Part shown: positions 13,837 through 30,343 of the stretch, one piece after another
How the letters are laid out: each line of letters begins with the position of its first letter
Position numbering within the stretch: position 1 is the first letter of the stretch
NCBI GenBank assembly: GCA_016719485.1
Contig: JADJZB010000006.1
Coordinates: 27,375-91,374, forward strand
DNA: 64,000 nucleotides
Source: Holophagales bacterium
GTDB taxonomy: Bacteria > Acidobacteriota > Thermoanaerobaculia > UBA5066
Direction of reading: 5' to 3'
Translations under genes and position numbers: made by a program
Notes under the pieces: model-generated
The model's input: the letters and a program-made list of their open reading frames with translations, nothing else
Told to the model about the DNA's origin: nothing
Database searches by the model: none

Positions 13837-19234
<5,398 letters not shown>

Positions 19235-19235
19235 C

Positions 19236-20471
19236 TCAGTCCTCCTCCACGAGCGAGGCCTTGGCGAACTCCGACTTCAGGACGAAGCTCCCTTCGGTGG
19301 CGACGACGTCGCCAGCCTTGATGCCGGCGAGAATCTCGGTGAAGCCCTCGAAGCTGTGTCCGACCTCGACGTAGTGCCGTTGGAAGACGCCGGGCTCGAC
19401 CTGAACGAAGACAGTCGAGCGACCCTCCAGCCTCTGGATGGCCGACTGGGGAACGGCCACGATCGGGTGCGCCTCGCTCTGCGGCTTCGGGACATCGACC
19501 TGGGCAGTGACGAAGAGACCCGGGCGGAGCTTCTCCGAACGGTTCTCCACCGTCGCGCGGACCCGGACGCTCCTCGTCTGCGGATCGACGACGCTGCCGA
19601 GGAAATCCACGCGGCCACGGAAGGTCTCCTGGGGATACGCGTCGGTTCTCAGCGTTACAGACAGCCCTTCGTGAAGGAGGGCGAGGTCTTTCTCGTAGGC
19701 ATTGAGGAACACCCAGACGGACCCCAGGTCGGCAATCGTCATGAGCGGCTGCAGCGCCTCGAAGAGGGCGCCGGAGGTCACCTTTCGGTCGATGACGCGG
19801 CCGGCGAAGGGAGCCCGGAGCGTGAGCGTGGCGCCGTCAGCCGCGGAGAGCCTGTGGTCGACAGCGTTGGCTCGCAAACGCGCGATCGTCTCTTCGCTGT
19901 CACCGTAGAGGTGGAGCGTCCTCTCGGCGGAGGCGACGGCGGTCTTCTTCGCCAGGTAGTCGCCTTCCCGAGCCTGGAACTCCCCGGCGCTGATGGCATT
20001 CGCCTCAACGAGCTTCCTGGCTCTCTCGTAGGCGCTGGCCGATACGTTGAAGCTCGACAGCTCCGTCACGAACTCCTCGCGCGTCCGACCGAGGTCGACG
20101 CTCTCGATCACGAGGAGCGGATCGCCGGGCTTTACGCGAGCGCCCAGGTCGACCGGAATCGACGTCACCCGGCCCTTGACGTTCGCGGCGACCAGGAGGA
20201 GGCGGTTCTCGTCGAATCCCACGCTGCCGGTGAGAGAGAGAATGTGTGAGAGGTCGACGATCTGGACCTTCCACGTCGTGATGCCGGCCTCGGCGATCGC
20301 GGCGGCGGTGAGATGGACGCGCTGCGGGGTCGCAGGCTCTTCGACCTTCTCGGCGGTTTTCGCGGGGGCTTCAGGCGCGGGAGCGGCACCGCGGCCCTTG
20401 CCGCAGCCGGCGAGAGCGACGGCGGCGGAAAGGGCGAGGCCGGAAAGGAGGATGGTGGGCTTCCTGTTCAC
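19236..20471 (-). CDS. efflux RND periplasmic adaptor (membrane-fusion) subunit
   Basis: lipoprotein-like signal LALSAAVALAGC; barrel-sandwich/beta-barrel hybrid pattern; stop abuts RND start. Confidence 0.85.
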   Translation of the reverse strand: MNRKPTILLSGLALSAAVALAGCGKGRGAAPAPEAPAKTAEKVEEPATPQRVHLTAAAIAEAGITTWKVQIVDLSHILSLTGSVGFDENRLLLVAANVKGRVTSIPVDLGARVKPGDPLLVIESVDLGRTREEFVTELSSFNVSASAYERARKLVEANAISAGEFQAREGDYLAKKTAVASAERTLHLYGDSEETIARLRANAVDHRLSAADGATLTLRAPFAGRVIDRKVTSGALFEALQPLMTIADLGSVWVFLNAYEKDLALLHEGLSVTLRTDAYPQETFRGRVDFLGSVVDPQTRSVRVRATVENRSEKLRPGLFVTAQVDVPKPQSEAHPIVAVPQSAIQRLEGRSTVFVQVEPGVFQRHYVEVGHSFEGFTEILAGIKAGDVVATEGSFVLKSEFAKASLVEED

Positions 20472-21727
20472 TTGCTATCTCCCGTGGTGTCGTCGTTCGG
20501 GCCGAGGAGCCGCCGAAGCTCCGCGATCGCGGTCGCGAGCTCGAAGCGGGCGCGGATCTCCTCGCGGCGGGCCTCGCGGGCCGTGCGCTGGGCGTCGAGG
20601 AGGTCGAGGAGGGACGTCTCGCCCTCTTCGAAGAGGAGGCGGGCGAGGCGGACGCTCTCGGCGGCGGATGGGAGGAAGTCTCCCTCGAGGGAGGCGACCT
20701 GGACGGCGAGCGTCTCGACGTCCCGGCGGCGTGTCGCGAGGTCGGAGAGGAGCGCGAGCCGCACGCGCTCGGCGTCCGCGGCCCGGAGGCGACTCTCGGC
20801 CTCGGCCCGCGCGACGTCTCCTCGTCGGGCGTTCCAGAGGGGCAGGGTGAGGCCGAGGGCGCCGCCCCATGCCTCGCGATCGAGCTCGTTCTGCCGGAAG
20901 AAGGAGAAGCCGAGGTCCGGGACGCGTCCTCTGCGGGCGCTCGAGAGGAGCGACGAGGCGCGGGCGGCCTCGGCGCGGGCGCGGATCAGCGCCGGGCTTC
21001 GCTCGAGGGCGTCGGGGTGCGCGTCGAGGAGGGCGCGCATGCCGTCGGGGTGCCGTGGAAGCTCGCCCGCGAGGCGAAGCGGGGTGGGGAGAGGCTCTCC
21101 CGCGAGTGTCCTCAGGATGCCCTCCGCGGCGAGCTCCTCCCTGTAGGCGGCGCTCAGCTGACGATCCTGCCGGAGCCACTCGACGCGCGCCTTGATCCGA
21201 TCAACCTCACGCGCCTCGCCGAGCGAGGCACGGCGGGTCATCAGGTCGAGGAGGGAGCGGGCGTCCTCCGCGGAGGCCCGGCCCACCTCGACCTGCGCCC
21301 GCGCGAACAGGAGACGCTCGTACGTGACCTGCGCGTCGAGCTCGAGGCCCCAACGCGTCGCGAGGCCCTCGGCCCGCAGCGCGCGGGCCTCGTGGTCGGC
21401 GGCCTCGATCGACGCCGATCGGGCCGGAAGCCAGGGGATCGACTGCGAGACGGAGAAGCCCTTCTCGGTCTTCGGCGACCCCGAGCCGTCCGCCGCCCGA
21501 CCCTCTCCGAGGCTCAGCTCGAGCGTCGGGTCGGGGAGAAGGCGTGCCGCCTTCGACGCCGCCGCGGCGCTTGCGTCGAGCGCCTGCGCCGACCGCGCGG
21601 ACGGGTGCGACTCCAGGACGAGCCGGACGTAGTCGTCCATCCGGAGCGCGTCCTGCGCGTGTGTTTCGAGGGTGCCGGCCATGGCTGCAAGCGCGAGCAC
21701 CCGGCCGCAATACGATCGAATTCCCAT
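20468..21727 (-). CDS. TolC-family outer-membrane efflux protein (CzcC/CusC-like)
   Basis: signal peptide, two repeated coiled-coil/beta halves typical of OEP family; start overlaps adaptor gene (4 nt). Confidence 0.8.
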   Translation of the reverse strand: MGIRSYCGRVLALAAMAGTLETHAQDALRMDDYVRLVLESHPSARSAQALDASAAAASKAARLLPDPTLELSLGEGRAADGSGSPKTEKGFSVSQSIPWLPARSASIEAADHEARALRAEGLATRWGLELDAQVTYERLLFARAQVEVGRASAEDARSLLDLMTRRASLGEAREVDRIKARVEWLRQDRQLSAAYREELAAEGILRTLAGEPLPTPLRLAGELPRHPDGMRALLDAHPDALERSPALIRARAEAARASSLLSSARRGRVPDLGFSFFRQNELDREAWGGALGLTLPLWNARRGDVARAEAESRLRAADAERVRLALLSDLATRRRDVETLAVQVASLEGDFLPSAAESVRLARLLFEEGETSLLDLLDAQRTAREARREEIRARFELATAIAELRRLLGPNDDTTGDSK

Positions 21728-22347: not shown

Positions 22348-22505
22348 GGTATCTATTTTCGTTGTCCCATGCTATCCGTAGATACCCGCGGAAGTGAAGT
22401 GTGCCAGCGTAAATCTATGGTATATGGCTAGTTGCGGCTGTCCGCAGACGGAGGTGCCGAATGGGGTTCAAGGGGTCGCGAGTTCGAATCTCGCCGTCCC
22501 GACCA
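22348..22505 (+). repeat. tRNA-3'-end-like element, copy a (~158 nt; homologous to 26649..26805)
   Basis: ends with atggggttcaaggggtcgcgagttcgaatctcgccgtcccgacca = T-arm (gcgag/ttcgaat/ctcgc) + 7-nt acceptor 3' strand + ACCA; ~70% identical to copy b over ~110 nt upstream of the core. Confidence 0.6.
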
Positions 22506-22589
22506 TCTTTAAATCACTCACAGGAAATGGTTTACAGGTGTCCACCGATGCTCCGTTCGGTGCTGCTGGTATCCGGTGGCCGGATCAGG

Positions 22590-22680
22590 ATGTCCGTAGC
22601 TGTCTGCGGTTTCGCCGTTTAGATACCCATCTCGGGTGAGGCGATTCAAGGAGTCGCGGGTTCACCTGGTCCGACCGGGT
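22590..22680 (+). repeat. degenerate additional copy of the tRNA-like element
   Basis: gatacccatctcggg...gcgattcaaggagtcgcgggttcacctggtccgaccgggtc resembles the core of copies a/b/c with many substitutions. Confidence 0.35.
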
Positions 22681-22893
22681 CGCACTCCGGGTATATCCAG
22701 GACGTAGAAGCGATCAGCCAGAGTCGCTTTCGACATCGGAGCTGTTCTGCCTGGCTGCCGCTGGCTCCGCGTCCTACGCCCAAGCGCAGGTACGCTGTTG
22801 TCAGAGCCAAGGCGTCTGATCCAACAGCTTCAAGAGGTTCCTGTTGGCCTCGTGAGTCGTCCGGAGGAAGAACAGGTGGCGAGCGAATTCGGC

Positions 22894-23304
22894 CTACCTC
22901 CAGTTGCGGTCCATGAGCCCGTGGTCCTCTACGTCGTCACGCGCGCCCTCGACGCCAGTACCGATAGGCTTCGATCCACTCGGTGCCGCTGGGCGGGCGG
23001 GCAGGCAGGGGCAGGTCGAGGATGGGGATTCTCTGCCGGGGGGGCCCGCGACACAGAGGGCAACGATGCCGTCGTCCGTCAACTCCACTCGCTTGACCGA
23101 AACCGCCACGCCAAGAATTTCCGTCGAGAAGGGGAGGGCGAGGTGATCCTCTATCAGCGTGTAGAGCCCCGACTGCTGCTCGTCGTCGTTGTACGTATCG
23201 ACGGTCGCCTCGGCGACCAGCGCATCGAGCTGTGGGCCTGAGAGACGCACCCGTCGCCCGGCGGGGCGAGCGGGGGCCGGCCGGACCGTCTGGCGACTCT
23301 TCAT
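22894..23304 (-). CDS. hypothetical small protein translationally coupled to the primase-helicase gene
   Basis: ATG 23304 overlaps the upstream stop (ATGA); LSGPQLDALVAEATVDTYNDDEQQSGLYTLIEDHLALPFSTEILGVAVSVKRVELTDDGIVALCV reads as genuine protein; C-terminus crosses a C7 homopolymer so the end is uncertain; antisense ORF 22798..23241 rejected. Confidence 0.4.
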   Translation of the reverse strand: MKSRQTVRPAPARPAGRRVRLSGPQLDALVAEATVDTYNDDEQQSGLYTLIEDHLALPFSTEILGVAVSVKRVELTDDGIVALCVAGPPGRESPSSTCPCLPARPAAPSGSKPIGTGVEGARDDVEDHGLMDRNWR

Positions 23305-25802
23305 GGCGAGGACCCGGCGGGAATCGCCCTGGCACCGATCTCTTCTTCTCCGCGTGTTGAGTCAGGGCCAGAGGTTTCGGCCACTCTGTACCCGATCTCT
23401 CGGTAGCCGCGCATCCTGCGTTCGAACATACGGGCGAGGACCGGAACCTGGCGGTCGACGTAGTCGACGATGCGGGCTTCAGTCTTCCCCGGGAGCGGGC
23501 GGTGGAGCCGACCAGCGTACTGGACGAGCGTGCCCCTCCAGGAAATCGGCATGGCGAGGAACAGCGTGTCGAGCCGCGCGTCGTCGAAGCCTTCGCCGAC
23601 GTAACGGCCGGTCGCCATGAGGAGACGCGGTTCATCCGGCGGAATGGCGCGAAGCCTTGCCATCGACTCTCGCCGTTGCTTTGCCCCGGTTCCACCGCGG
23701 AGTACGACGACGTGCGGGCAGGCCGCGGCAAGGCGGGCGGCGAGAAGGTCCAGATGATCTCGGCGTTCCGTGAGGACGAGTGGTGTGCGTCCCTCGCCGA
23801 GCGCGAGCGTCACGTCGCGAACGATGGCGTCGTTTCTCGCTTCGTCCCGGGCCAGCGCACCGTAGAGGCTCTGGATGGAAGGATCGGTGTCCTGTGCGGA
23901 AGAAGTGAACGACGTTTCGCGAACGACCAGGGTCTTCGTCAGTGAGTCCGCCGACTCAGCCGGCTTGCGGCCCACGTCGAACCGGACGGGCCCGATCTGC
24001 ATGTGGAGGATCGGCTGGTGGCCGTCCCGACGCTTGGCCGTGGCCGTCAGCCCCACGACGAACTTCGCCCGGATTCCCGAGAGCACTCGTTCGAACGAGA
24101 CGGCCGGGATGTGGTGACACTCGTCCACGATGACGTGGCCGTAGCCGCCGACGATCTCGTCGATCTCGTCGCCCCGGACGAGGCTCTGGATCATGGCGAC
24201 GTCCAGGTGCCCGTTCGGCTTTCGGACGCCCCCTCCGACTCGACCGATCTCTCTCGGATCGACGCCGAGGTGCAGGGACAGCTGCTCCACCCACTGGTCC
24301 AGGAGCGGCTGGCGGTGGACGAGTACGACCGCCGAGCGGGCCCGGGCGGCGATCAGGTACGAGCCGACGACCGTCTTCCCCGATCCCGGCGGGGCCACGA
24401 AGACTCCGGTGTCGTGGGCCAGCAGCATCTGGGCTGCCTCCTCCTGCCGGGGAGTGAGGCTGCTGGCGAACGACACGTCGAGCATCGGCCCTTGGTGGCG
24501 CTCGTCCTCGAGGTCCAGCCTCACGGCGTGCCCGCCGAGAAGGGGGCGGAGGTCATCGAGGCAGCCTCTCGGCAGCGAGACGTGGCGAGGGTGATCCTCC
24601 GCACAGCTGATCACACGAGGCGTGAGTGCCGTCGAGAGGCGCAGTCCCTGCTTCTTGAAGAACTCCGGATTCTGGAAAGCGGCAAGACGCTTGATCTGGT
24701 TGAGCAGCGGGGAGGGGAGCCCCTCCTTCGCGACGAAGAGCCGGTTTGCGAGGACGGCGCGAACTTCAGTCGGGAGCGGTCCGAGGAGAAGGCGAGCGGT
24801 CGATCGCCGGGACGGCGTCTGGCGCCACGGCCGAGCGGCATCCTCATCCTCCCCGTCCTCGGTGGTCCGGACTCCGACGACCAGCCCTTTCCTCGCGGCC
24901 TCCGAGGCAATCGTCTCCACGTAGTCCCGGCTCATCCGATTGACCCCGAGGAGGTATGCCCACTGGTCCGGGTGGGGCTCGAGGTTCGCGTCGAGAAAGA
25001 CTGTGTTTCCCTGAGTGCGGGGATGGCGCTGGAGCGGAAGGGCGATCAGGTTGCCGAATCCGCCCCGGGGCATCGTGTCCTGGCTCGGGAAGAGGCGGTC
25101 GTACGACGCCATGCTCAGCTCGTGCCTGCGGGACATCGTCTCGGTGATCAGGAACGAGGCCATCCGCCGGGCTGCGGAGGCGGGGACGGGCGCAGAGAAG
25201 AAGAGCCAGGCATGGGCCCCGTTGCCGGACCGCGACCGTTCGACGGCAATCGGAACTCCCAGCTCTCCGCACGTGGCGGCGAAGGCCGAAACATCGGCAG
25301 CCCATTCGGCCTCGTCGAAATCGGCGGCGACAAACCAGCAGGTCTCGTCGGCGAGCAGGGGATAGCAGCCGATCACGTGACGACCCTGGAGGTGATCGAG
25401 GAGCACCTGGTCGGACATCGGGAGAAAGGCCTGGCTCGGGCAGTCGCCACAACGGACGCGCGGCTTCTCGCAGACTCCTCGCACCCAGTCGTTCCGGCAA
25501 GTTGGGGAGTACCCCTTCTTGCCCGTCTTCGGGCTGACCCAGAGCTTGGGGAACACGTCCTCCCGGCCACGGAAGAGACTCCGGAAGAGGCCAACCTTCT
25601 CTTGCGCGTTCAGCCGACCGGCGGGAGCCGGCGTCGCGACGATGGTGCGGCCTTCGCTGTCATCCTCTGCGCGAAGGGCGTTCCGGAGGTCCTCGACTTG
25701 CTTCTCGAGTGCGTCCCGGCGTCTGCCGAGGTCGGCGATCTCCGCTTCTGCGGCCTCGATGGCAATGGTGAGAGCTGCCCGTCGGTGACCGCGGGCGTTC
25801 AT
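23301..25802 (-). CDS. archaeo-eukaryotic primase-polymerase (Prim-Pol) domain fused to SF2 DExH helicase
   Basis: real start MNARGHRRAAL at 25802 overlapping upstream stop; N-terminal Cys cluster CRNDWVRGVCEKPRVRCGDC, AEP motifs VAADFDEAE and RSRSGNGAHAWLFF; helicase Walker A APPGSGKT, DECH box VIVDECHH, TAT GLTATAKRRDG, motif VI VQYAGRLHR. Confidence 0.75.
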   Translation of the reverse strand: MNARGHRRAALTIAIEAAEAEIADLGRRRDALEKQVEDLRNALRAEDDSEGRTIVATPAPAGRLNAQEKVGLFRSLFRGREDVFPKLWVSPKTGKKGYSPTCRNDWVRGVCEKPRVRCGDCPSQAFLPMSDQVLLDHLQGRHVIGCYPLLADETCWFVAADFDEAEWAADVSAFAATCGELGVPIAVERSRSGNGAHAWLFFSAPVPASAARRMASFLITETMSRRHELSMASYDRLFPSQDTMPRGGFGNLIALPLQRHPRTQGNTVFLDANLEPHPDQWAYLLGVNRMSRDYVETIASEAARKGLVVGVRTTEDGEDEDAARPWRQTPSRRSTARLLLGPLPTEVRAVLANRLFVAKEGLPSPLLNQIKRLAAFQNPEFFKKQGLRLSTALTPRVISCAEDHPRHVSLPRGCLDDLRPLLGGHAVRLDLEDERHQGPMLDVSFASSLTPRQEEAAQMLLAHDTGVFVAPPGSGKTVVGSYLIAARARSAVVLVHRQPLLDQWVEQLSLHLGVDPREIGRVGGGVRKPNGHLDVAMIQSLVRGDEIDEIVGGYGHVIVDECHHIPAVSFERVLSGIRAKFVVGLTATAKRRDGHQPILHMQIGPVRFDVGRKPAESADSLTKTLVVRETSFTSSAQDTDPSIQSLYGALARDEARNDAIVRDVTLALGEGRTPLVLTERRDHLDLLAARLAAACPHVVVLRGGTGAKQRRESMARLRAIPPDEPRLLMATGRYVGEGFDDARLDTLFLAMPISWRGTLVQYAGRLHRPLPGKTEARIVDYVDRQVPVLARMFERRMRGYREIGYRVAETSGPDSTRGEEEIGARAIPAGSSP

Positions 25803-26293
25803 CCGGCGACGTCTTCTCCCGCCAGTGAGAGGACGCGTTTTCGAATGTCGGGCGACATCCACATCCCGGAGGCAGCGAGAAGGTCCACGAGCGGAGCTAC
25901 GGAAGGGACGAGGCGAGCCTTCTTGGCCTCGAGCAGGACACGGAGGGTGCCCCAGGTGGTCAGGCCGGCGGCGCGGGCCGTCCGCCGCGCGAGCGCATCG
26001 TCGAGAAGGAGGATTCGCTGAGGGTTTTCGAGGGCGAGCGCCATCGCGGCGAGCTCTCCGGCTCCGAGATCGAGAGTCAGCCACTCGGAGGGGGTCGATT
26101 TCGGGTCGACGGTCTCCAGCCAGGCCAGGTTGTCCGTGTCTGGCACCTCGAACCCGAGTGCCCGCCCTTCGCCGAGCTCCCTCAGGACCGCCGACGGAAC
26201 CCAGACCGACCCGAAGAGCTGGTCAAGCCAGCCGAGAGCTCCGATCCGACCCAGGTAGAGAAGGGGAGAGGTGTTAGTGATCGAGCCTGGCAT
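25799..26293 (-). CDS. DUF3368-type PIN-like nuclease domain protein (putative toxin)
   Basis: MPGSITNTSPLLYLGRIGALGWLDQLFGSVWVPSAVLRELG pattern typical of DUF3368; overlaps upstream ORF by 20 nt and the downstream primase-helicase by ATGA. Confidence 0.55.
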   Translation of the reverse strand: MPGSITNTSPLLYLGRIGALGWLDQLFGSVWVPSAVLRELGEGRALGFEVPDTDNLAWLETVDPKSTPSEWLTLDLGAGELAAMALALENPQRILLLDDALARRTARAAGLTTWGTLRVLLEAKKARLVPSVAPLVDLLAASGMWMSPDIRKRVLSLAGEDVAG

Positions 26294-26534
26294 CGCCTTC
26301 GAGCTCGGTAAGCTCGGCTTCCAGCGGGAACGTCTTGTAGCGCTTCAGCTCGTAGAGGAACTCGACCCGGCCCATTCCAGCGAGCTCTGCCGCTCGGCCC
26401 GAGGAGAGCCTGCCCAGTTCATAGAGCTTGACCGCCGCGAGGACCTGCAGCTCCCTCGCGAAAGACACCTCGTCGGTCTTCTCGGATAGAAGGACCTTTT
26501 CCGGAACCGCGACAACTACCGACCGTGACGCCAT
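26274..26534 (-). CDS. UPF0175-family antitoxin-like protein
   Basis: 86 aa, SFARELQVLAAVKLYELGRLSSGRAAELAGMGRVEFLYELKRY typical of UPF0175 partners of DUF3368. Confidence 0.5.
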   Translation of the reverse strand: MASRSVVVAVPEKVLLSEKTDEVSFARELQVLAAVKLYELGRLSSGRAAELAGMGRVEFLYELKRYKTFPLEAELTELEGDARLDH

Positions 26535-26648
26535 CTCTTTGGACTCCCATGGCGATTGTCTCTCAAGAGCGCTGCCCGATCCTGTCGGATCCTTCCCGCG
26601 GGGGGCCGAACGCAGGTTTCAGAAGCGTCGTTCATTGAGAGCCTCAAG

Positions 26649-26805
26649 GTATCTACTTTCGTTGTCCGATGCCGTCTGCGGATAGTCCGGGCGGCATCTC
26701 ACCCAAGCGTAAATTCATGATATATGGCCAGTTACAGCTGTCAGTGGACGGAGGTGTCGCATGGGGTTCAAGGGGTCGCGAGTTCGAATCTCGCCGTCCC
26801 GACCA
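26649..26805 (+). ncRNA. tRNA-3'-end-like structured RNA element, copy b (followed by intrinsic terminator)
   Basis: same 45-nt T-arm/acceptor/ACCA core as copy a plus ~110 nt of homologous upstream sequence; followed by gccgccggg-aa-cggcggc + TTTTT; canonical 5' acceptor strand not found by eye. Confidence 0.45.
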
Positions 26806-26825
26806 TTGATTCCAAAGGATTTAGA

Positions 26826-26851
26826 CGCCGCCGGGAACGGCGGCGTTTTTG
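26826..26851 (+). terminator. rho-independent terminator after tRNA-like element b
   Basis: gccgccggGAAcggcggc hairpin followed by gttttt. Confidence 0.6.
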
Positions 26852-26858
26852 CGCCTGT

Positions 26859-27560
26859 CTACTTCTCTCTGACCGACCTCGTCACCTGACCCGTCCCTGC
26901 GAGGGCGCGAAGTCGCTGAAGCAGGATCGGCACCCGCGCCTGGCTTCCGCTATCCGACGGGAGATGACCCGGAAGCGCCGAGAGGAAACGCTCCTCGGTC
27001 AAGAACCTCCCGAGTTCGATGCCGAGAAACGAGCGAAGGTCATCGGACGAGGCCGAGACCTCCTCCACGATCCCGTCGCGGCCGTCGACGACGCTGACGA
27101 AGTCCTCGAGGTCGTGGCTGGAGGCGTAGTCGCCTCGCCCCCTTCCCAGGAACGCCTCCAGCTTGGTGGCCAGGAAGGCCGGCGGCGAGACCACCGCGAT
27201 CTCGACGCCGCTCGGAAGCCGGACGGTCCGCTGCGTTCGCAGCGCTTCCGGGTACCAGCGGTTTGCGAAGCCGAGCACCGAAGGATCGATCGGCATGACG
27301 TCGAGGAGAGTCTCGCCGAAGGTCCATCGGCAGATCGGAGCCCCAGCGCTCTGATCGTGGCGGAATCCGCGCTCCGTCATCTCCCTCTCGAGCGCGAAGT
27401 ACGCGGACCGGTCTGGTGTCTCGACGATCACGTCGACGTCCCGCGTAGCTCGGATCGGCGCGGCGGCAGGATCCGTGATCAGGAGTCCCGTGGCACACCC
27501 CCCGAGGAAGACCATGCTGTGGCGCAGGGGCCCGAGGGCCTCGGCGATACGCTCGAGCAT
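26859..27560 (-). CDS. nucleotidyltransferase-fold protein (AbiEii/DUF1814-like putative toxin)
   Basis: real start MLERIAEALGP at 27560 (upstream ORF part is GC junk); FLGGCATGLL, DVDVIVETPD motifs of minimal nucleotidyltransferase; preceded by wHTH gene. Confidence 0.5.
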   Translation of the reverse strand: MLERIAEALGPLRHSMVFLGGCATGLLITDPAAAPIRATRDVDVIVETPDRSAYFALEREMTERGFRHDQSAGAPICRWTFGETLLDVMPIDPSVLGFANRWYPEALRTQRTVRLPSGVEIAVVSPPAFLATKLEAFLGRGRGDYASSHDLEDFVSVVDGRDGIVEEVSASSDDLRSFLGIELGRFLTEERFLSALPGHLPSDSGSQARVPILLQRLRALAGTGQVTRSVREK

Positions 27561-27580
27561 GGCGAGGTTGGGGTCCGGGG

Positions 27581-28093
27581 TCACCTCAGCCGCTCCTCGA
27601 GGAGTCGCGTGGCCATCTCGCGCTCGCGAGCACGTCCTGCCCGCAGGGCATCGAACAGAGCGAGAAGCTCGTACAAGGCGGGGTCTTCCAGCGCGGCGCC
27701 CGGTGCGGAAGGAATGAGCGGCGCGAGGCTCGGTCCACGCGCGGTGCCGTTCGGGTGAGGCCAGACGGGAGGCGGTTCGGAGGCGTCCGCGAGGAGTTCC
27801 TTCAGCGGCGAGGCGGCGTGCGCGGTCGGGATTCCCCTCGCCAACTCGCCCCGAAACGCCGGGAAGGAGTACTTCGCTCCGTGGACGAGAAACTCCCGGA
27901 GCGCCTCGGCCCGGGGTCTGACGCGCAGTCCTCCTGGCGGCAGCAGGCCGGCCGCGACCGCCCGCTTCACCGCGCCGTGAGCCTCCGACACGCTCATCCC
28001 CAGGGACCGGGCGAGGAGCGGGTAGGTCCAAGCCTGGTCGCGTCCGACCCAGAGCTTGAGAGCGACGAGGAGATCCTGCGGTTTCAGGGCCAT
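27581..28093 (-). CDS. winged-HTH transcriptional regulator (AbiEi-like putative antitoxin)
   Basis: MALKPQDLLVALKLWVGRDQAWTYPLLARSLGMSVSEAHGAVKRAVAAGLL wHTH; immediately upstream of nucleotidyltransferase gene. Confidence 0.4.
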   Translation of the reverse strand: MALKPQDLLVALKLWVGRDQAWTYPLLARSLGMSVSEAHGAVKRAVAAGLLPPGGLRVRPRAEALREFLVHGAKYSFPAFRGELARGIPTAHAASPLKELLADASEPPPVWPHPNGTARGPSLAPLIPSAPGAALEDPALYELLALFDALRAGRAREREMATRLLEERLR

Positions 28094-28452
28094 GGAGGGA
28101 GTGTATTCGTGATTCGCGAAACGCGAAAGGGCGAGAACTCGAACCGGTTCTATTGGCCCGTCGCGAGGCCGCGTCTCGCAGGAACCCGATGCGATCCTCA
28201 CGACCCTCGCCGCCAGTGTCGATACGCCTCAATCCACACCGCCCCGCCGGGAGGAAGATCGGGGAGACTCGGTGAGCCTTGTGTACGAAACGTCGGGGAT
28301 CGCAGGCGGAAGTCAACAGTTTGTTCTTCGCCGGGAACCACCCGAGAACGAACGGCGAATCGGAGGTGCTGCGAGGCGAGGAGGTGTCCACACTACTGTC
28401 CAAAACGGCCGGACCCATCGGGCTCCCGGCGTCGAAAGCGCTCCTTTTCCCC

Positions 28453-28497
28453 ATGGGGTTCAAGGGGTCGCGGGTTCGAATCTCGCCGTCCCGACCA
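28453..28497 (+). repeat. tRNA-3'-end-like core, copy c (one substitution: gcggg instead of gcgag in T-stem)
   Basis: atggggttcaaggggtcgcgggttcgaatctcgccgtcccgacca; no upstream homology to copies a/b. Confidence 0.55.
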
Positions 28498-28608
28498 CTC
28501 TGATCGCCGAGACGGAAGCCGCGGACGACCTCCACGGCGTCGAGCTTTTCGCGCGTCGACCAAGCCTCGTCTTGACGAAGCCGTTGGCCGCGCCGACCGG
28601 TTGAGGCG

Positions 28609-28953
28609 TCAGTCGAGGGAGTCGCGAAGCCGACGAAGTCGCGACGCGAGAACGGGCAGGTCGCTGACGACGATCATCCAGACGAGCTCGAGGTCCACCG
28701 CGAAGTACCCGTGGACGACCCGGTTCCTGAGGCCGACGACCCGCGGCCATTCCAGGTCCGGTGTGCTTGCCCTGAACTCATCCGGCACGTGAGCGGCTGC
28801 TTCTCCGAGAATCTCGAGGTTCCTCACGACGGCGTCGGAGGTCTTCTCGTCGGCGAGGAATGCGGGCTGGTCCATTCTCGCGACATACCGCTCGATCCGC
28901 TCCGTCGCCTCGAGCATGTCGTCGAGCAGGAGGCGGACGGAGCGTCTAGACAT
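28609..28953 (-). CDS. hepT: HepT-like (DUF86/HEPN) RNase toxin
   Basis: HEPN Rx4-6H-type motif region RNRVVHGYF, DUF86 pattern VRNLEILGEAA; overlaps mntA by 8 nt. Confidence 0.65.
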   Translation of the reverse strand: MSRRSVRLLLDDMLEATERIERYVARMDQPAFLADEKTSDAVVRNLEILGEAAAHVPDEFRASTPDLEWPRVVGLRNRVVHGYFAVDLELVWMIVVSDLPVLASRLRRLRDSLD

Positions 28954-29239
28954 GAAGAGCTTCGAGCCGGATAGCGTCCATGTGACGTGGACGCAGCGCC
29001 CGCGTTGAGATGAGGTCGACCGGTCGGCCGAGGGCCTCTTCGAGCTTGTCGGCGAGCGTGACGAAATCGAGTCCGATCGCGGGATCTACTTCGACGAGGA
29101 TGTCGATGTCGCTTCGGTCGGTCTCGTCGCCCCGCGCGAACGAGCCGAAGAGGGCCAGGTCGCGCACGCCGAAGCGACGTCCGAGGTCGGGCTTCATTGC
29201 CCGGAGGGTCGAGATGATCTCCTCGCGGGATCGAACCAT
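28946..29239 (-). CDS. mntA: MntA-type minimal nucleotidyltransferase antitoxin
   Basis: LALFGSFARGDETDRSDIDILVEV (GSxxRGxxxxxSDxD) nucleotidyltransferase motif; 97 aa. Confidence 0.65.
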   Translation of the reverse strand: MVRSREEIISTLRAMKPDLGRRFGVRDLALFGSFARGDETDRSDIDILVEVDPAIGLDFVTLADKLEEALGRPVDLISTRALRPRHMDAIRLEALHV

Positions 29240-29255
29240 GGCGAGGCGAGTCTAG

Positions 29256-29393
29256 CCGGAAGCCGGGAAACGGGGTCGAAGCCAGTGTTGCGAGAGGCAC
29301 TCTCGTCTGACCGTGGCGTTGAAGGACTCGGCGAAGGCGTTGTCCACCGGCTTGCCAGGCCGTCGCGGAAGGCGGCGGACGAGAGGCCCGCCC
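29256..29393 (-). mobile_element. IS3-family transposase (rve/OrfB) C-terminal remnant
   Basis: minus-strand translation ...PGKPVDNAFAESFNATVRRECLSQHWLRPRF... matches the conserved GKPxDNAxxESFNgtLKrEcl motif of IS3 OrfB; no start, truncated after ~45 aa. Confidence 0.55.
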
Positions 29394-29425: not shown

Positions 29426-30343
29426 TCAGCCGAGGAGCAGCCGGACGAGGTGGTAGTAGACGGGCGCCGACAGGAGGAGCGAGTCGACCCGGTCGAGCAT
29501 CCCGCCGTGCCCGGGCAGGAGCGCGCTCCAGTCCTTGAGGCCCAGGTCTCTCTTCACGGACGAGAGGAGGAGGCCGCCCGCAACCCCGAGGAGGTAGACC
29601 ACCAGTGCGAGCGCCGCACCCTGGCGCCAGGTGAAGGGAGTCGAGCCGTGGAGCAGCACGCCGAGGCCGACGGCGAAGAGAAGCCCTCCTGCGAAACCTT
29701 CCCACGTCTTGGACGGAGAGCGGGCGGAGAGCGGGTGCCGGCCCAGGAGGCGGCCGGAGACGTACTGGGCCACGTCGCTCGACTGGACCACAAGAAGCAG
29801 GAAGCCGGCGAGGAGCGGGCCCGAGGCGGGAGCGGCCTGCGGCCGGAGGTACCAGAGCGCGGCGACGTGGGGAAGGCCCCAGAGAGTGCCCAGCAGCGCG
29901 AGGTGAAAGTGCAAAGCGCGCCGTCTCGCGTCGCCCGGCGGCGAGGATGCCCACGCCGCCAGGACGAGGCCGAGGCCGGCGAGTCCGATGACCGGCGAGA
30001 CGAGCCAGTAGCCGGAATACGGCACGAGCGCGAACAAGAGAGGCAGTGCCCCGTAGAAAAGGACGGACATCGAGGTGTAATCCCGGACACTCGAGATTCC
30101 CCGCCTCGAGAGGAGTTCCCGGAGACCTTGCGCGGCAACCACGGCGAAAAGGAAGAGGGCGCCGGGCGGTCCCGCGAAGTAGGCCGCAGCGAGGACGCCG
30201 AGGATCCAGGCCCAGCCGACGGCCCGGTCCACGAGGTTGCGGCCCGTGGCGTTCCCGGGCCCGAGCCGTCGGCGGATCAGGAGCACGACGGCGGTGCCGA
30301 GCGCCAGCGCGCCGGCGACCCACGTCCAGAGGCGCCAGACCTC
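29426..30343 (-). CDS. cdsA: phosphatidate cytidylyltransferase (CDP-diacylglycerol synthase)
   Basis: C-terminal signature KTWEGFAGG...GHGGMLDRVDS; 8-9 TM; start uncertain (no ATG/GTG near first TM; may use CTG or overlap plsC-like stop at 30346). Confidence 0.65.
   Translation of the reverse strand, partial: EVWRLWTWVAGALALGTAVVLLIRRRLGPGNATGRNLVDRAVGWAWILGVLAAAYFAGPPGALFLFAVVAAQGLRELLSRRGISSVRDYTSMSVLFYGALPLLFALVPYSGYWLVSPVIGLAGLGLVLAAWASSPPGDARRRALHFHLALLGTLWGLPHVAALWYLRPQAAPASGPLLAGFLLLVVQSSDVAQYVSGRLLGRHPLSARSPSKTWEGFAGGLLFAVGLGVLLHGSTPFTWRQGAALALVVYLLGVAGGLLLSSVKRDLGLKDWSALLPGHGGMLDRVDSLLLSAPVYYHLVRLLLG

What the first reader, a model, noticed from the sequence alone, without database searches (positions are those of the whole stretch)
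26859..29393. Stacked defence/TA cassettes ending in an IS3 transposase remnant
Between repeat copies b and c lies a wHTH regulator plus a minimal nucleotidyltransferase (AbiE-like type IV TA architecture). Just after copy c lies a HepT(HEPN)/MntA nucleotidyltransferase pair with an 8-nt overlap. Next comes a ~140-nt fragment whose minus-strand translation (GKPVDNAFAESFNATVRRECLSQHW) is the conserved C-terminal motif of IS3-family OrfB transposases. The fragment is truncated and has no start. Together with finding 2 this defines a ~7 kb mosaic island (22.3-29.4 kb) inserted between the czc operon and the lipid operon.
Basis: partly seen in the sequence, partly recalled or inferred. Interest (0 to 1): 0.5.

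Follow-up and report, generated by a model that had tools for sequence, protein, structure and literature searches.

The report
Stacked toxin-antitoxin cassettes at tRNA-Pro fragments
This stretch holds two intact two-gene toxin-antitoxin or defence modules and a dead scrap of an IS3 transposase, packed between leftover 3' pieces of a proline tRNA gene that mark repeated insertions of mobile DNA; it is largely ordinary, though one module is an untested family.

Summary
All genes are on the minus strand.

- **Module 1** is a 170-aa winged-helix protein (27581-28093) overlapping a 241-aa nucleotidyltransferase (26859-27584) by 4 nt.
- **Module 2** is MntA (28946-29239) and HepT (28609-28953), overlapping by 8 nt.
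- **The IS3 relic** spans about 100 nt (29282-29380) and matches Pfam rve_3 and NCBIfam IS3 transposase.

The interpretation needs three corrections.

- **Module 1 is not canonical AbiE.** Both proteins match the untested PADLOC candidate PDC-M21. The enzyme falls below the Pfam AbiEii cut-off. Its closest solved fold is the tRNA-modifying toxin MenT1. It keeps MenT1's R-x-T-R-D-V-D active-site motif, including the phospho-acceptor threonine. The partner is unrelated to AbiEi.
- **The repeat copies are tRNA-Pro(GGG) 3' portions,** running from the anticodon loop to CCA. These are classic integration-site cores.
- **Close relatives lack or swap single cassettes.** The array is therefore a variable hotspot with no integrase found in the parts of the window I scanned.

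My proposed mechanism for module 1 is inferred, not shown. The enzyme extends tRNA 3' ends and blocks translation. The partner neutralises it and represses the operon through a conserved TTCGC/GCGAA palindrome.

The finding is a new member of known kinds, of modest interest.

The parts
26760..26805 (+). Repeat copy b: the 3' portion of tRNA-Pro(GGG), from anticodon loop to CCA. It is preceded by a 112-nt conserved 'arm' at 26648-26759.
   Evidence: Repeat family D2. The same 32-mer pattern found 120+ places in public genomes, and nearly all of those checked are intact tRNA-Pro(GGG) genes. The arm is shared with copy a and with loci L006 and L081.
26819..26852 (+). Intrinsic-terminator-like hairpin followed by a T-run. 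It lies between copy b and the end of the nucleotidyltransferase gene.
   Evidence: The terminator scan gives a stem at 26826-26845 followed by TTTTT. The sequence was read directly. An equivalent hairpin is present in L003, L005 and L006.
26859..27584 (-). Nucleotidyltransferase of 241 aa (233 aa if the ATG at 27560 is used). It is PADLOC PDC-M21B and the predicted MenT1/AbiEii-like toxin.
   Evidence: PADLOC gives E 3.3e-64. Pfam AbiEii gives only 20.7 bits, below the cut-off. The AlphaFold2 model has pLDDT 94. The best Foldseek match to solved structures is MenT1, entries 8an5/8an4, E 2e-7. The motif R45-A-T47-R-D49-V-D51 aligns with MenT1 R37-F-T39-R-D-V-D. G28, G29, K141 and D161 are invariant in 30 homologues.
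27581..28093 (-). Partner protein of 170 aa, PADLOC PDC-M21A. It has an N-terminal winged helix-turn-helix and a C-terminal domain without a known fold match. It is the predicted antitoxin and autorepressor.
28106..28127 (-). Candidate operator TTCGCGTTTCGCGAATCACGAA, 13-34 nt upstream of the partner's ATG.
   Evidence: Inverted repeats of TTCGC/GCGAA half-sites occupy the same position upstream of homologous pairs in L003, L127, L129 and L131-L133. The proteins there are only about 55-75% identical to those of the window. Coordinates were checked.
28283..28447 (+). 'Arm 2': the conserved sequence immediately left of copy c.
   Evidence: The stretch 28283-28499 (arm plus copy c) is 82% identical over 218 nt to the stretch next to a tRNA-Pro core that precedes a canonical AbiEi/AbiEii cassette in L002. 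It is also partly present in L102 and L003-L006.
28452..28497 (+). Repeat copy c: the 3' portion of tRNA-Pro(GGG).
28609..28953 (-). HepT (HEPN-domain RNase toxin), 114 aa, with the RX4HXY motif RNRVVHGY at residues 76-83.
   Evidence: Pfam HepT-like gives E 4.5e-28 and 97.8 bits. NCBIfam HepT_toxin gives E 1.4e-11, at 44.4 bits below the equivalog cut-off of 60. The motif was read.
28946..29239 (-). MntA (minimal nucleotidyltransferase antitoxin), 97 aa, with the motif G32-S-x10-D-I-D.
   Evidence: Pfam NTP_transf_2 gives E 3.1e-12. NCBIfam MntA_antitoxin gives E 2.3e-12, at 46.7 bits below the cut-off of 60. PADLOC PDC-S09 gives E 7e-24. The solved minimal nucleotidyltransferase 1wot matches at E 2e-8. 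The 8-nt overlap with HepT was read.
29282..29380 (-). Relic of an IS3-family transposase: 33 codons of the C-terminal catalytic core. It has no start codon and is truncated on both sides.
   Evidence: Pfam rve_3 gives E 5e-9, matching positions 9-35 of 67. NCBIfam transpos_IS3 gives E 7.3e-7, matching positions 306-334 of 369.

Best explanation
The region is the right-hand part of a variable array of small cassettes. No integrase was found among the ORFs profiled. The array was built by repeated site-specific insertion at a tRNA-Pro(GGG)-type attachment core, which runs from the anticodon loop to the 3' CCA. Each insertion left a 46-nt tRNA fragment behind.

Two cassettes in the finding carry intact two-gene modules.

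**Module 1 (PDC-M21).** This is a toxin-antitoxin or abortive-infection pair of the DUF1814 nucleotidyltransferase kind.
- The 241-aa enzyme is the toxin. [quoted passage not shown] The tRNAs can then no longer be charged, and translation stops.
- The 170-aa partner is the antitoxin. Its winged helix binds the TTCGC/GCGAA palindrome in front of the operon and represses it.
- The partner's C-terminal domain binds the enzyme and switches it off. This could happen by blocking the active site or by inducing auto-phosphorylation of the conserved Thr47.

**Module 2 (MntA/HepT).** This is a type VII toxin-antitoxin pair. HepT is an RNase with the RX4HXY motif. MntA inactivates it by adenylylating it.

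**The IS3 piece.** It is a dead relic at the island's right edge, next to the cdsA gene.

**Shown:** gene structures, family matches, folds, conserved motifs, conserved pairing, the conserved palindrome, the tRNA origin of the repeats, and cassette presence or absence in relatives.

**Inferred:** toxicity, the tRNA target, the mode of neutralisation, repression, and any role in phage defence.
For: **Family matches**
- Module 1 matches PADLOC PDC-M21A and PDC-M21B.
- Module 2 matches Pfam HepT-like and NTP_transf_2.
- The relic matches rve_3 and IS3 transposase.

**The enzyme of module 1**
- The AlphaFold2 model is confident, with pLDDT 94.
- Its best solved neighbours are MenT1 (E 2e-7, TM-score 0.50-0.63), then 5uvd and JHP933.
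- A profile alignment puts R45-x-T47-R-D49-V-D51 on MenT1 R37-F-T39-R-D-V-D.
- T39 is the MenT1 phospho-acceptor, and R37-equivalent residues are needed for activity (PMC11375011).
- R45, T47, D49, D51, K141 and D161 are invariant in 30 homologues.

**The pairing**
- The partner-then-enzyme order is conserved in unrelated neighbourhoods and on plasmids of other phyla. The 4-nt overlap holds wherever a full pair was seen in genomic or metagenomic loci.
- The family is found on 116 plasmids and no phage.

**Regulation**
- The palindrome is conserved upstream of diverged pairs.

**The array**
- The repeats are 3' portions of tRNA-Pro(GGG).
- Relative L006 has the order small ORF, then copy a, then PDC-M21, and lacks the 4.3-kb cassette at 22507-26806.
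- L002 carries an AbiEi/AbiEii cassette between two such cores, with the same arm sequence.

**MenT and AbiEii biochemistry** comes from PMC7450476, PMC10435456, PMC11375011 and bioRxiv 10.64898/2026.01.19.700257.
Against: - No experiment exists for PDC-M21. It is one of 145 untested candidates (bioRxiv 10.1101/2024.01.29.577857), and no paper in the searched library contains the term 'PDC-M21'.
- Similarity to MenT1 is distant: about 20% identity, with sequence-level E-values of only 0.007 by profile.
- The enzyme also resembles the aminoglycoside nucleotidyltransferase ANT(2'')-Ia at E about 7e-4.
- The partner's C-terminal domain has no known fold relative, so how it neutralises the enzyme is a guess.
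- No intact tRNA-Pro was found anywhere in the 64-kb window. No integrase was found among the ORFs scanned. The insertion mechanism is therefore inferred from its footprints.
- HepT and MntA score below the NCBIfam equivalog cut-offs.
Confidence: 0.7

Rival explanations
1. Module 1 is a canonical AbiE system. It would be an AbiEi antitoxin plus an AbiEii GTP-binding nucleotidyltransferase toxin.
For: - It has the same two-gene order, with overlapping genes.
- There is a weak Pfam AbiEii hit at E 4e-4.
- RefSeq names some plasmid homologues 'nucleotidyl transferase AbiEii/AbiGii toxin family protein'.
- The RATRDVD motif resembles RATRDLD of a true AbiEii in L002.
Against: - The AbiEii score of 20.7 bits is below the gathering cut-off of 22.5.
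- The enzyme has 241 aa, against 305 aa for the true AbiEii in L002.
- A profile comparison with that AbiEii gives only 16% probability over 38 columns.
- The partner has no AbiEi hit in Pfam or NCBIfam. Its probability against a true AbiEi_4 protein is 0.2%.
Confidence: 0.08
2. Module 1 is not a toxin-antitoxin pair. It would instead be a small-molecule-modifying enzyme, for example an aminoglycoside nucleotidyltransferase like ANT(2'')-Ia, under the control of a MarR-like repressor.
For: - Foldseek matches ANT(2'')-Ia at E 7e-4 to 2e-3.
- The partner's N-terminal domain is MarR-like.
- An operator-like palindrome lies upstream.
Against: - MenT1 matches are about 1000-fold better in E-value.
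- The MenT1-type R-x-T-R-D-V-D motif is conserved, and so is the lysine and aspartate pair typical of DUF1814 motifs III and IV.
- The 4-nt translational coupling and strict pairing hold across phyla.
- The pair sits in an array with other toxin-antitoxin and defence genes.
- PADLOC candidates were picked because they are embedded in BREX, DISARM or type I restriction systems.
Confidence: 0.07
3. The modules are real toxin-antitoxin pairs but act only as addiction modules that stabilise the island. They would have no role in phage defence.
For: - The modules sit on mobile cassettes and on 116 plasmids.
- No phage-defence test exists for PDC-M21.
- MenAT systems in M. tuberculosis are studied as growth regulators rather than defences.
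Against: - Their neighbours are defence-type genes: a TOTE primase-helicase and PDC-S70.
- AbiE, the best-known relative, is an abortive-infection system.
- This rival changes the biological role, not the molecular mechanism.
Confidence: 0.3
4. The repeats are fragments of a transfer-messenger RNA (tmRNA) gene, or together with the 112-nt arm form a small RNA gene of about 160 nt. They would then not be tRNA-derived attachment cores.
For: - Rfam in permissive mode aligned copies a and b to the ends of the tmRNA model at 24 and 22 bits.
- The 160-nt unit is conserved in L006 and L081.
- The T-stem shows a compensatory A-U to G-C change between copies.
Against: - The tmRNA score is far below the gathering score of 47.
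- No 5' acceptor strand exists next to any copy, and ARAGORN finds no gene.
- The same sequence is the 3' end of intact tRNA-Pro(GGG) in nearly all of about 70 loci checked.
- L081 has the intact tRNA with the identical anticodon-loop sequence.
- The T-stem change is what a tRNA origin predicts.
Confidence: 0.05

Closest known systems
MenAT1 (MenA1/MenT1, Rv0078B/Rv0078A) of Mycobacterium tuberculosis, and the wider MenT/AbiEii DUF1814 nucleotidyltransferase toxins
   Same: - MenT1 is the best solved structural neighbour.
- The active-site motif R-x-T-R-D-V-D is the same, including the threonine that is auto-phosphorylated in MenT1.
- A lysine and aspartate pair downstream is conserved.
- The toxin gene follows the antitoxin gene.
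   Different: - Identity is only about 20%.
- The enzyme has 241 aa against 196 aa for the solved MenT1 chain.
- The antitoxin is a 170-aa winged-helix protein. MenA1 is a 68-aa MazE-like peptide, MenA2 is a large COG4861 protein, and MenA3 and MenA4 are COG5340/AbiEi-type proteins.
- tRNA modification has not been tested.
AbiE (AbiEi/AbiEii) abortive-infection toxin-antitoxin system
   Same: - It has the same architecture: a winged-helix autorepressor-type partner upstream of a nucleotidyltransferase toxin of the same superfamily.
- An inverted-repeat operator lies upstream.
   Different: - The partner is not AbiEi.
- The enzyme is below the Pfam AbiEii cut-off and about 60 residues shorter than a true AbiEii.
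PADLOC phage defence candidate PDC-M21
   Same: Both genes match the two PDC-M21 profiles strongly, and they are adjacent.
   Different: - Nothing structural differs.
- PDC-M21 is a name for an untested candidate without a proposed mechanism.
- The partner matches only positions 56-202 of the 205-position profile.
HepT/MntA (HEPN/MNT) type VII toxin-antitoxin system
   Same: - The domains, catalytic motifs and gene order match, with overlapping genes.
- Small sizes of 114 and 97 aa fit, from my own knowledge, the usual size of these proteins.
   Different: Both proteins score below the NCBIfam equivalog cut-offs, at 44.4 and 46.7 bits against 60. They are therefore a diverged subfamily.
Tandem genomic islets at tRNA genes, and cis-mobilisable elements (att-flanked elements that lack their own integrase)
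   Same: - Direct repeats are tRNA 3' portions starting in the anticodon loop.
- Cassettes differ between close relatives.
- No integrase was found among the cassette ORFs scanned with Pfam.
   Different: - No intact tRNA-Pro lies at either end within the 64-kb window.
- The cassettes are very small, at 1.7-4.3 kb.
- Two of the cores carry a conserved 112-nt arm.
- The comparison with cis-mobilisable elements rests on my own knowledge of that literature, not on a test.

Membership tests
AbiE (AbiEi/AbiEii) | The toxin is an AbiEii/DUF1814 nucleotidyltransferase (Pfam PF08843 at or above the gathering score). | tested here: not met
   The score is 20.7 bits against a cut-off of 22.5, at E 4e-4. 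The motif I/II region is clearly related, so it belongs to the superfamily but not to the Pfam family as defined.
AbiE (AbiEi/AbiEii) | The antitoxin is an AbiEi/COG5340-type protein. | tested here: not met
   It has no Pfam or NCBIfam hit even at E 10. hhalign probability against a true AbiEi_4 protein is 0.2%. The solved AbiEi 6y8q is not among the listed fold matches.
AbiE (AbiEi/AbiEii) | A bicistronic operon with the antitoxin first, and an inverted-repeat operator. | tested here: met
   The genes overlap by 4 nt. A conserved palindrome lies upstream. Binding itself was not tested.
MenAT / DUF1814 nucleotidyltransferase toxins | A MenT-like fold with the motif I/II active site, including the phospho-acceptor Ser/Thr loop. 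| tested here: met
   Foldseek matches MenT1 at E 2e-7. R45-x-T47-R-D49-V-D51 aligns to MenT1 R37-F-T39-R-D-V-D. These residues are invariant in 30 homologues.
MenAT / DUF1814 nucleotidyltransferase toxins | The enzyme adds nucleotides to tRNA 3' CCA ends, and its toxicity is relieved by the cognate antitoxin. | not testable with these tools
   This needs toxicity assays and tRNA 3'-end sequencing.
MenAT / DUF1814 nucleotidyltransferase toxins | The antitoxin belongs to one of the three described MenA families: MazE-like MenA1, COG4861 MenA2, or COG5340 MenA3/MenA4. | tested here: inconclusive
   The COG5340 type is excluded. MenA1 (68 aa) and MenA2 (larger than its toxin) differ in size according to the literature.
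PADLOC PDC-M21 | Adjacent genes match the PDC-M21A and PDC-M21B profiles. | tested here: met
   E-values are 1.1e-38 and 3.3e-64. The genes overlap.
HepT/MntA type VII toxin-antitoxin | A HEPN-domain toxin with the RX4HXY motif. | tested here: met
   Pfam HepT-like gives 97.8 bits against a cut-off of 23.5. RNRVVHGY is at residues 76-83.
HepT/MntA type VII toxin-antitoxin | A minimal nucleotidyltransferase antitoxin with GSX10DXD, encoded immediately upstream. | tested here: met
   NTP_transf_2 gives 47.2 bits against a cut-off of 21. The motif is at residues 32-46, and the genes overlap by 8 nt.
HepT/MntA type VII toxin-antitoxin | NCBIfam equivalog-level membership (HepT_toxin, MntA_antitoxin). 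| tested here: not met
   The scores are 44.4 and 46.7 bits against cut-offs of 60. The pair is a diverged subfamily.
HepT/MntA type VII toxin-antitoxin | MntA adenylylates HepT. | not testable with these tools
   This needs biochemistry.
IS3-family insertion sequence | A transposase with a DDE (rve) catalytic core. | tested here: inconclusive
   Only the C-terminal part of the core is present: rve_3 positions 9-35 of 67, and IS3 transposase positions 306-334 of 369. It is a fragment of such a gene, not a gene.
IS3-family insertion sequence | A complete element: OrfA/OrfB with a frameshift site, and terminal inverted repeats. | tested here: not met
   No start codon is present, and homology is lost on both sides within about 100 nt. 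The cdsA stop at 29426-29428 and the MntA start at 29239 leave only 186 nt.
tRNA-gene-integrated genomic island | Direct repeats derived from the 3' part of a tRNA gene. | tested here: met
tRNA-gene-integrated genomic island | An intact tRNA gene at one end, and an integrase gene. | tested here: not met
   ARAGORN and Rfam find no tRNA in the 64-kb window. No integrase was found among the island ORFs or ten flanking ORFs scanned. Not every ORF of the window was scanned.
tRNA-gene-integrated genomic island | Presence/absence polymorphism in relatives, and deviant composition. | tested here: met
   L006 lacks 22507-26806. L002 and L102 carry other cassette orders.

The most novel reading that the evidence does not exclude
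**First claim.** PDC-M21 is a widespread, uncharacterised branch of the tRNA-targeting DUF1814 nucleotidyltransferase toxins. It would be controlled by a fourth, structurally new antitoxin family: a winged helix plus a novel C-terminal domain. That antitoxin would both repress the operon and trigger toxin auto-phosphorylation on the conserved Thr47.

**Second claim.** The array is a cassette system without its own integrase. Each unit would carry a tRNA-Pro-derived core plus, in some cassettes, a conserved promoter-bearing arm. A chromosomal integrase would exchange the units in trans between related Acidobacteriota, somewhat as an integron exchanges cassettes.
Probability: 0.25. Interest if true: 0.6.

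Novelty: new member of a known kind. Interest (0 to 1): 0.35.

Why it matters
- **A concrete hypothesis for an untested family.** PDC-M21 is large: at least 5,778 enzyme clusters and 2,280 partner clusters at 90% identity, and 116 plasmids. The hypothesis is that it is a MenT1-like tRNA-end-modifying toxin with a conserved phospho-acceptor threonine and a new kind of DNA-binding antitoxin.
- **A wider rule, if confirmed.** Confirmation would extend the recently proposed auto-phosphorylation control of nucleotidyltransferase toxins to a further antitoxin class.
- **Cassette traffic in uncultured bacteria.** The array shows how small defence and toxin-antitoxin cassettes are shuffled at a tRNA-Pro-derived site in uncultured Acidobacteriota.
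- **The rest is routine.** The HepT/MntA pair and the IS3 relic are ordinary annotation.

Tried and rejected
- **tmRNA origin of the repeats.** Permissive Rfam hits suggested it. I rejected it after the genome-wide pattern scan and ARAGORN showed the sequence is the 3' end of tRNA-Pro(GGG).
- **The 160-nt unit (arm plus core) as a small RNA gene.** I found no acceptor strand, no family hit, and no convincing covariation outside the tRNA-derived T-arm. I left it as an attachment-site arm.
- **A 187-nt insertion at 28174-28360.** It appeared as an insertion relative to L003-L006. However, 28266-28360 is present next to tRNA cores in L002 and L102. A deletion in the L003-L006 lineage is therefore as likely as a mobile insertion. 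No other copy exists in the window.
- **A longer GTG start for the partner (28201, 206 aa).** I rejected it because homology with relatives begins only about 90 nt upstream of the ATG at 28093, and relatives aa.
- **An integrase in the window.** None was found among the island ORFs and ten flanking ORFs. This scan was incomplete.
- **Solved-structure sequence searches.** The partner and HepT gave nothing useful.
- **Phage genomes.** The enzyme has no homologue there.
- **Literature search for 'PDC-M21'.** It returned nothing.
- **A promoter in the arm of copy a.** It is not detected at the scan's threshold, unlike the arm of copy b.

Full report
**What is there**

The window is about 69% G+C. 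All genes in the finding lie on the minus strand.

- **Repeat copies.** Three 46-nt direct repeats on the plus strand sit at 22460-22505 (a), 26760-26805 (b) and 28452-28497 (c). Their 3' 24-mer occurs exactly three times, against none expected in shuffles.
- **Between b and c.** A 170-aa ORF lies at 27581-28093, and a 241-aa ORF at 26859-27584. Its GTG start overlaps the upstream stop in GTGA. A hairpin with a T-run follows at 26819-26852.
- **After c.** MntA is at 28946-29239 and HepT at 28609-28953, overlapping by 8 nt.
- **Between MntA and cdsA.** The minus strand at 29282-29380 reads VRRLPRRPGKPVDNAFAESFNATVRRECLSQHW. The phosphatidate cytidylyltransferase gene cdsA ends with its stop at 29426-29428.

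**Profile tests**

- HepT matches Pfam HepT-like at E 4.5e-28. MntA matches NTP_transf_2 at E 3e-12.
- The RX4HXY motif (RNRVVHGY) and the GSX10DXD motif are both intact.
- Both proteins score below the NCBIfam equivalog cut-offs, so they form a diverged HepT/MntA pair.
- The transposase peptide matches Pfam rve_3 at E 5e-9, above the cut-off. It also matches NCBIfam IS3 transposase, positions 306-334 of 369, at E 7e-7.
- That peptide is a relic of about 100 nt, with no start and no flanking homology.

**The first pair is not AbiE proper**

- The enzyme gives only a sub-threshold AbiEii hit of 20.7 bits against a cut-off of 22.5.
- The partner hits nothing in Pfam or NCBIfam, even at E 10.
- Both hit the PADLOC candidate system PDC-M21, at E 3e-64 for B and 1e-38 for A.
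- PDC systems are 145 untested candidates. They were picked because such genes lie embedded in BREX, DISARM or type I restriction loci (bioRxiv 10.1101/2024.01.29.577857).
- No paper in the searched library contains the term 'PDC-M21'.
- A genuine AbiEi_4/AbiEii pair occurs in the related contig L002, which allowed a direct comparison. The partner profile against that AbiEi gives probability 0.2%. The enzyme profile against that AbiEii aligns only the motif I/II region, RATRDVD against RATRDLD, at probability 16%.

**Structure and motifs**

- Both proteins fold confidently from 30-sequence alignments, with pLDDT 94 each.
- The enzyme's best solved neighbours are MenT1 of M. tuberculosis (8an5/8an4, E 2e-7 to 6e-6, TM-score 0.5-0.63). 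Next come a fungal nucleotidyltransferase-like protein (5uvd), JHP933, and ANT(2'')-Ia.
- A profile search of solved-structure sequences aligns R45-A-T47-R-D49-V-D51 with MenT1 R-F-T-R-D-V-D.
- In MenT1 these residues are R37, F38 and T39. T39 is the site of antitoxin-induced auto-phosphorylation that shuts the enzyme off (PMC11375011).
- R45, T47, D49, V50, D51, K141, D161 and the G28-G29 pair are invariant among 30 homologues down to 53% identity.
- MenT1 and MenT3 add pyrimidines to tRNA 3' CCA ends and block translation (PMC7450476, PMC10435456).
- AbiEii has recently been reported to be neutralised by the same antitoxin-induced auto-phosphorylation (bioRxiv 10.64898/2026.01.19.700257).
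- The partner's C-terminal half, with conserved HG-KY-FP, RG-PT and PVWP motifs, has no recognised relative.

**Conserved pairing and operator**

The partner-then-enzyme order, with a 4-nt overlap where full pairs were seen, recurs in unrelated neighbourhoods:
- next to a nitric-oxide reductase gene (L003-L006);
- next to an acyl-CoA-ligase-like gene (L002);
- beside Fic, IS110 and MazEF genes (L127);
- among housekeeping genes (L129, L131);
- on plasmids of Aquabacterium and Pseudomonas, where the upstream 'hypothetical protein' matches the partner profile at E 2e-49 and 2e-31.

The enzyme has at least 5,778 homologous clusters and the partner 2,280. It is found on 116 plasmids and on no phage.

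Inverted repeats built from TTCGC/GCGAA half-sites lie about 13-35 nt upstream of the partner's start codon. They occur in the window (28106-27, TTCGCGTTTCGCGAATCACGAA) and in L003, L127, L129 and L131. Their persistence across diverged pairs makes an autoregulatory operator likely, but binding is inferred.

**What the repeats are**

- Permissive Rfam hits first suggested a tmRNA 3' end.
- A scan of one genome per species with the 32-mer pattern then returned 120+ loci. ARAGORN shows that nearly all of about 70 loci examined are intact tRNA-Pro(GGG) genes.
- The identity in the window starts in the anticodon loop (ATGGGGTTCAAGG...) and runs to CCA.
- The window has no intact tRNA.
- From my own knowledge, this class of core, from anticodon loop to 3' end, is a classic target of tyrosine integrases.
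- Copies a and b also share a 112-nt arm to their left. The arm is conserved in L006 and in an Acidobacteriota genome, L081. There it lies 1.8 kb downstream of the intact tRNA-Pro.
- Copy c has a different arm (28283-28447). That arm also precedes the AbiEi/AbiEii cassette of L002.

**Comparative evidence for cassette turnover**

- **L001.** This contig from a wastewater metagenome reproduces the window from cdsA to the PIN gene at 99-100% identity.
- **L006** (about 90% identical). It has the order small ORF, then copy a, then PDC-M21, then the nitric-oxide reductase gene. It lacks 22507-26806, which holds the TOTE primase-helicase, the PIN/UPF0175 pair and copy b.
- **L002.** It has PDC-M21 elsewhere, and an AbiE cassette between two tRNA-Pro cores.
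- **L102** (a Holophagales genome). It has a TOTE homologue, then a core, then PDC-M21, beside genes that lie 10-20 kb away in the window.
- **Composition.** The island is compositionally deviant.
- **Integrase.** None was found among the island ORFs or ten flanking ORFs.

The cassettes therefore look like integrase-less units moved in trans, or decayed islets. This is an inference.

**Verdict**

- HepT/MntA and the IS3 relic are ordinary.
- The first pair is best filed as PADLOC PDC-M21. It is a MenT1-like member of the DUF1814 nucleotidyltransferase toxin superfamily with a partner unrelated to AbiEi.
- Its mechanism is a testable inference: tRNA 3'-end extension, with neutralisation and autorepression by the partner.
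- The organism is probably an Acidobacteriota bacterium, near Holophagales or Thermoanaerobaculia, judging by the closest named relatives.

Noticed in passing
window 23301-26084 (-), with 22894-23304 (-): A 927-aa protein combines the archaeo-eukaryotic primase domain of the 'TOTE conflict system' (Pfam PF22548, E 1e-95) with a ResIII/DEAD helicase. It is followed by a 136-aa ORF with a weak CcbP-like hit. A 67%-identical homologue lies next to PDC-M21 in the Holophagales locus L102.
   Followed up: partly
window 25799-26293 (-) and 26274-26534 (-): A PIN-like DUF3368 protein and a UPF0175 protein form a third overlapping toxin-antitoxin-type pair, matching PADLOC candidate PDC-S70. The PIN ORF overlaps the 5' end of the long TOTE ORF as listed, so the true TOTE start is probably downstream of 26084.
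   Followed up: no
window 22348-22459 and 26648-26759; L006 1963-2073; L081 4077-4185: A 112-nt 'arm' left of tRNA-fragment copies a and b is conserved at 72-88% across genomes, always joined to the tRNA-Pro core. In copy b it holds a minus-strand promoter-like site, CTGACA-16-TATCAT, that points into the UPF0175/PIN/TOTE genes. The equivalent site in copy a is below the scan threshold. Its role is open: promoter, integrase arm site, or both.
   Followed up: partly
window 22640-22685: A degenerate fourth copy of the tRNA-derived core (GATTCAAGGAGTCGCGGGTTCACCTGGTCCGACC) lies 178 nt right of copy a. It is preceded by TAGATACC, as in the arm. It may be the scar of a lost cassette.
   Followed up: no
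window 22946-22996 and 28204-28254: A 51-nt imperfect direct repeat (37 of 51 identical, local score 42 against 17 +/- 2 in shuffles) lies once near the 3' end of the 136-aa ORF and once upstream of the PDC-M21 promoter. It is unexplained.
   Followed up: partly
L002 4186-6038: In a close relative, a canonical AbiEi_4/AbiEii cassette sits between two tRNA-Pro(GGG) cores. It shares the 'arm 2' sequence found left of copy c in the window. The same site type therefore hosts interchangeable nucleotidyltransferase toxin modules.
   Followed up: partly
L081 3940-3985 and 5930-5975 (minus-strand read): In L081, each tRNA-Pro core is followed at a variable distance (about 50 to 85 nt) by a sequence containing GATTCGAACCCGCGACC, the reverse complement of the tRNA T-arm. 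It looks like an inverted tRNA fragment. I did not check for the same in the window.
   Followed up: no
window 29426-29440: The cdsA reading frame continues in the same frame into the IS3 relic after its stop codon. This is probably coincidence, but it places the relic flush against the gene's end.
   Followed up: no
window 13837-16164 (-): A heavy-metal P-type ATPase carries an N-terminal match to the nitrogen-regulatory P-II family (PF00543, E 3e-10). This is an unusual combination. It lies in a metal-resistance cluster that also holds a multicopper oxidase and ORFs at 16130-21727 that the finding calls the czc operon, which I did not profile.
   Followed up: no
L027 3293-6768: An Actinomycetota genome also has a tRNA-Pro(GGG) gene plus a second core copy 3.4 kb away. 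Small islets at this tRNA are therefore not confined to Acidobacteriota.
   Followed up: no
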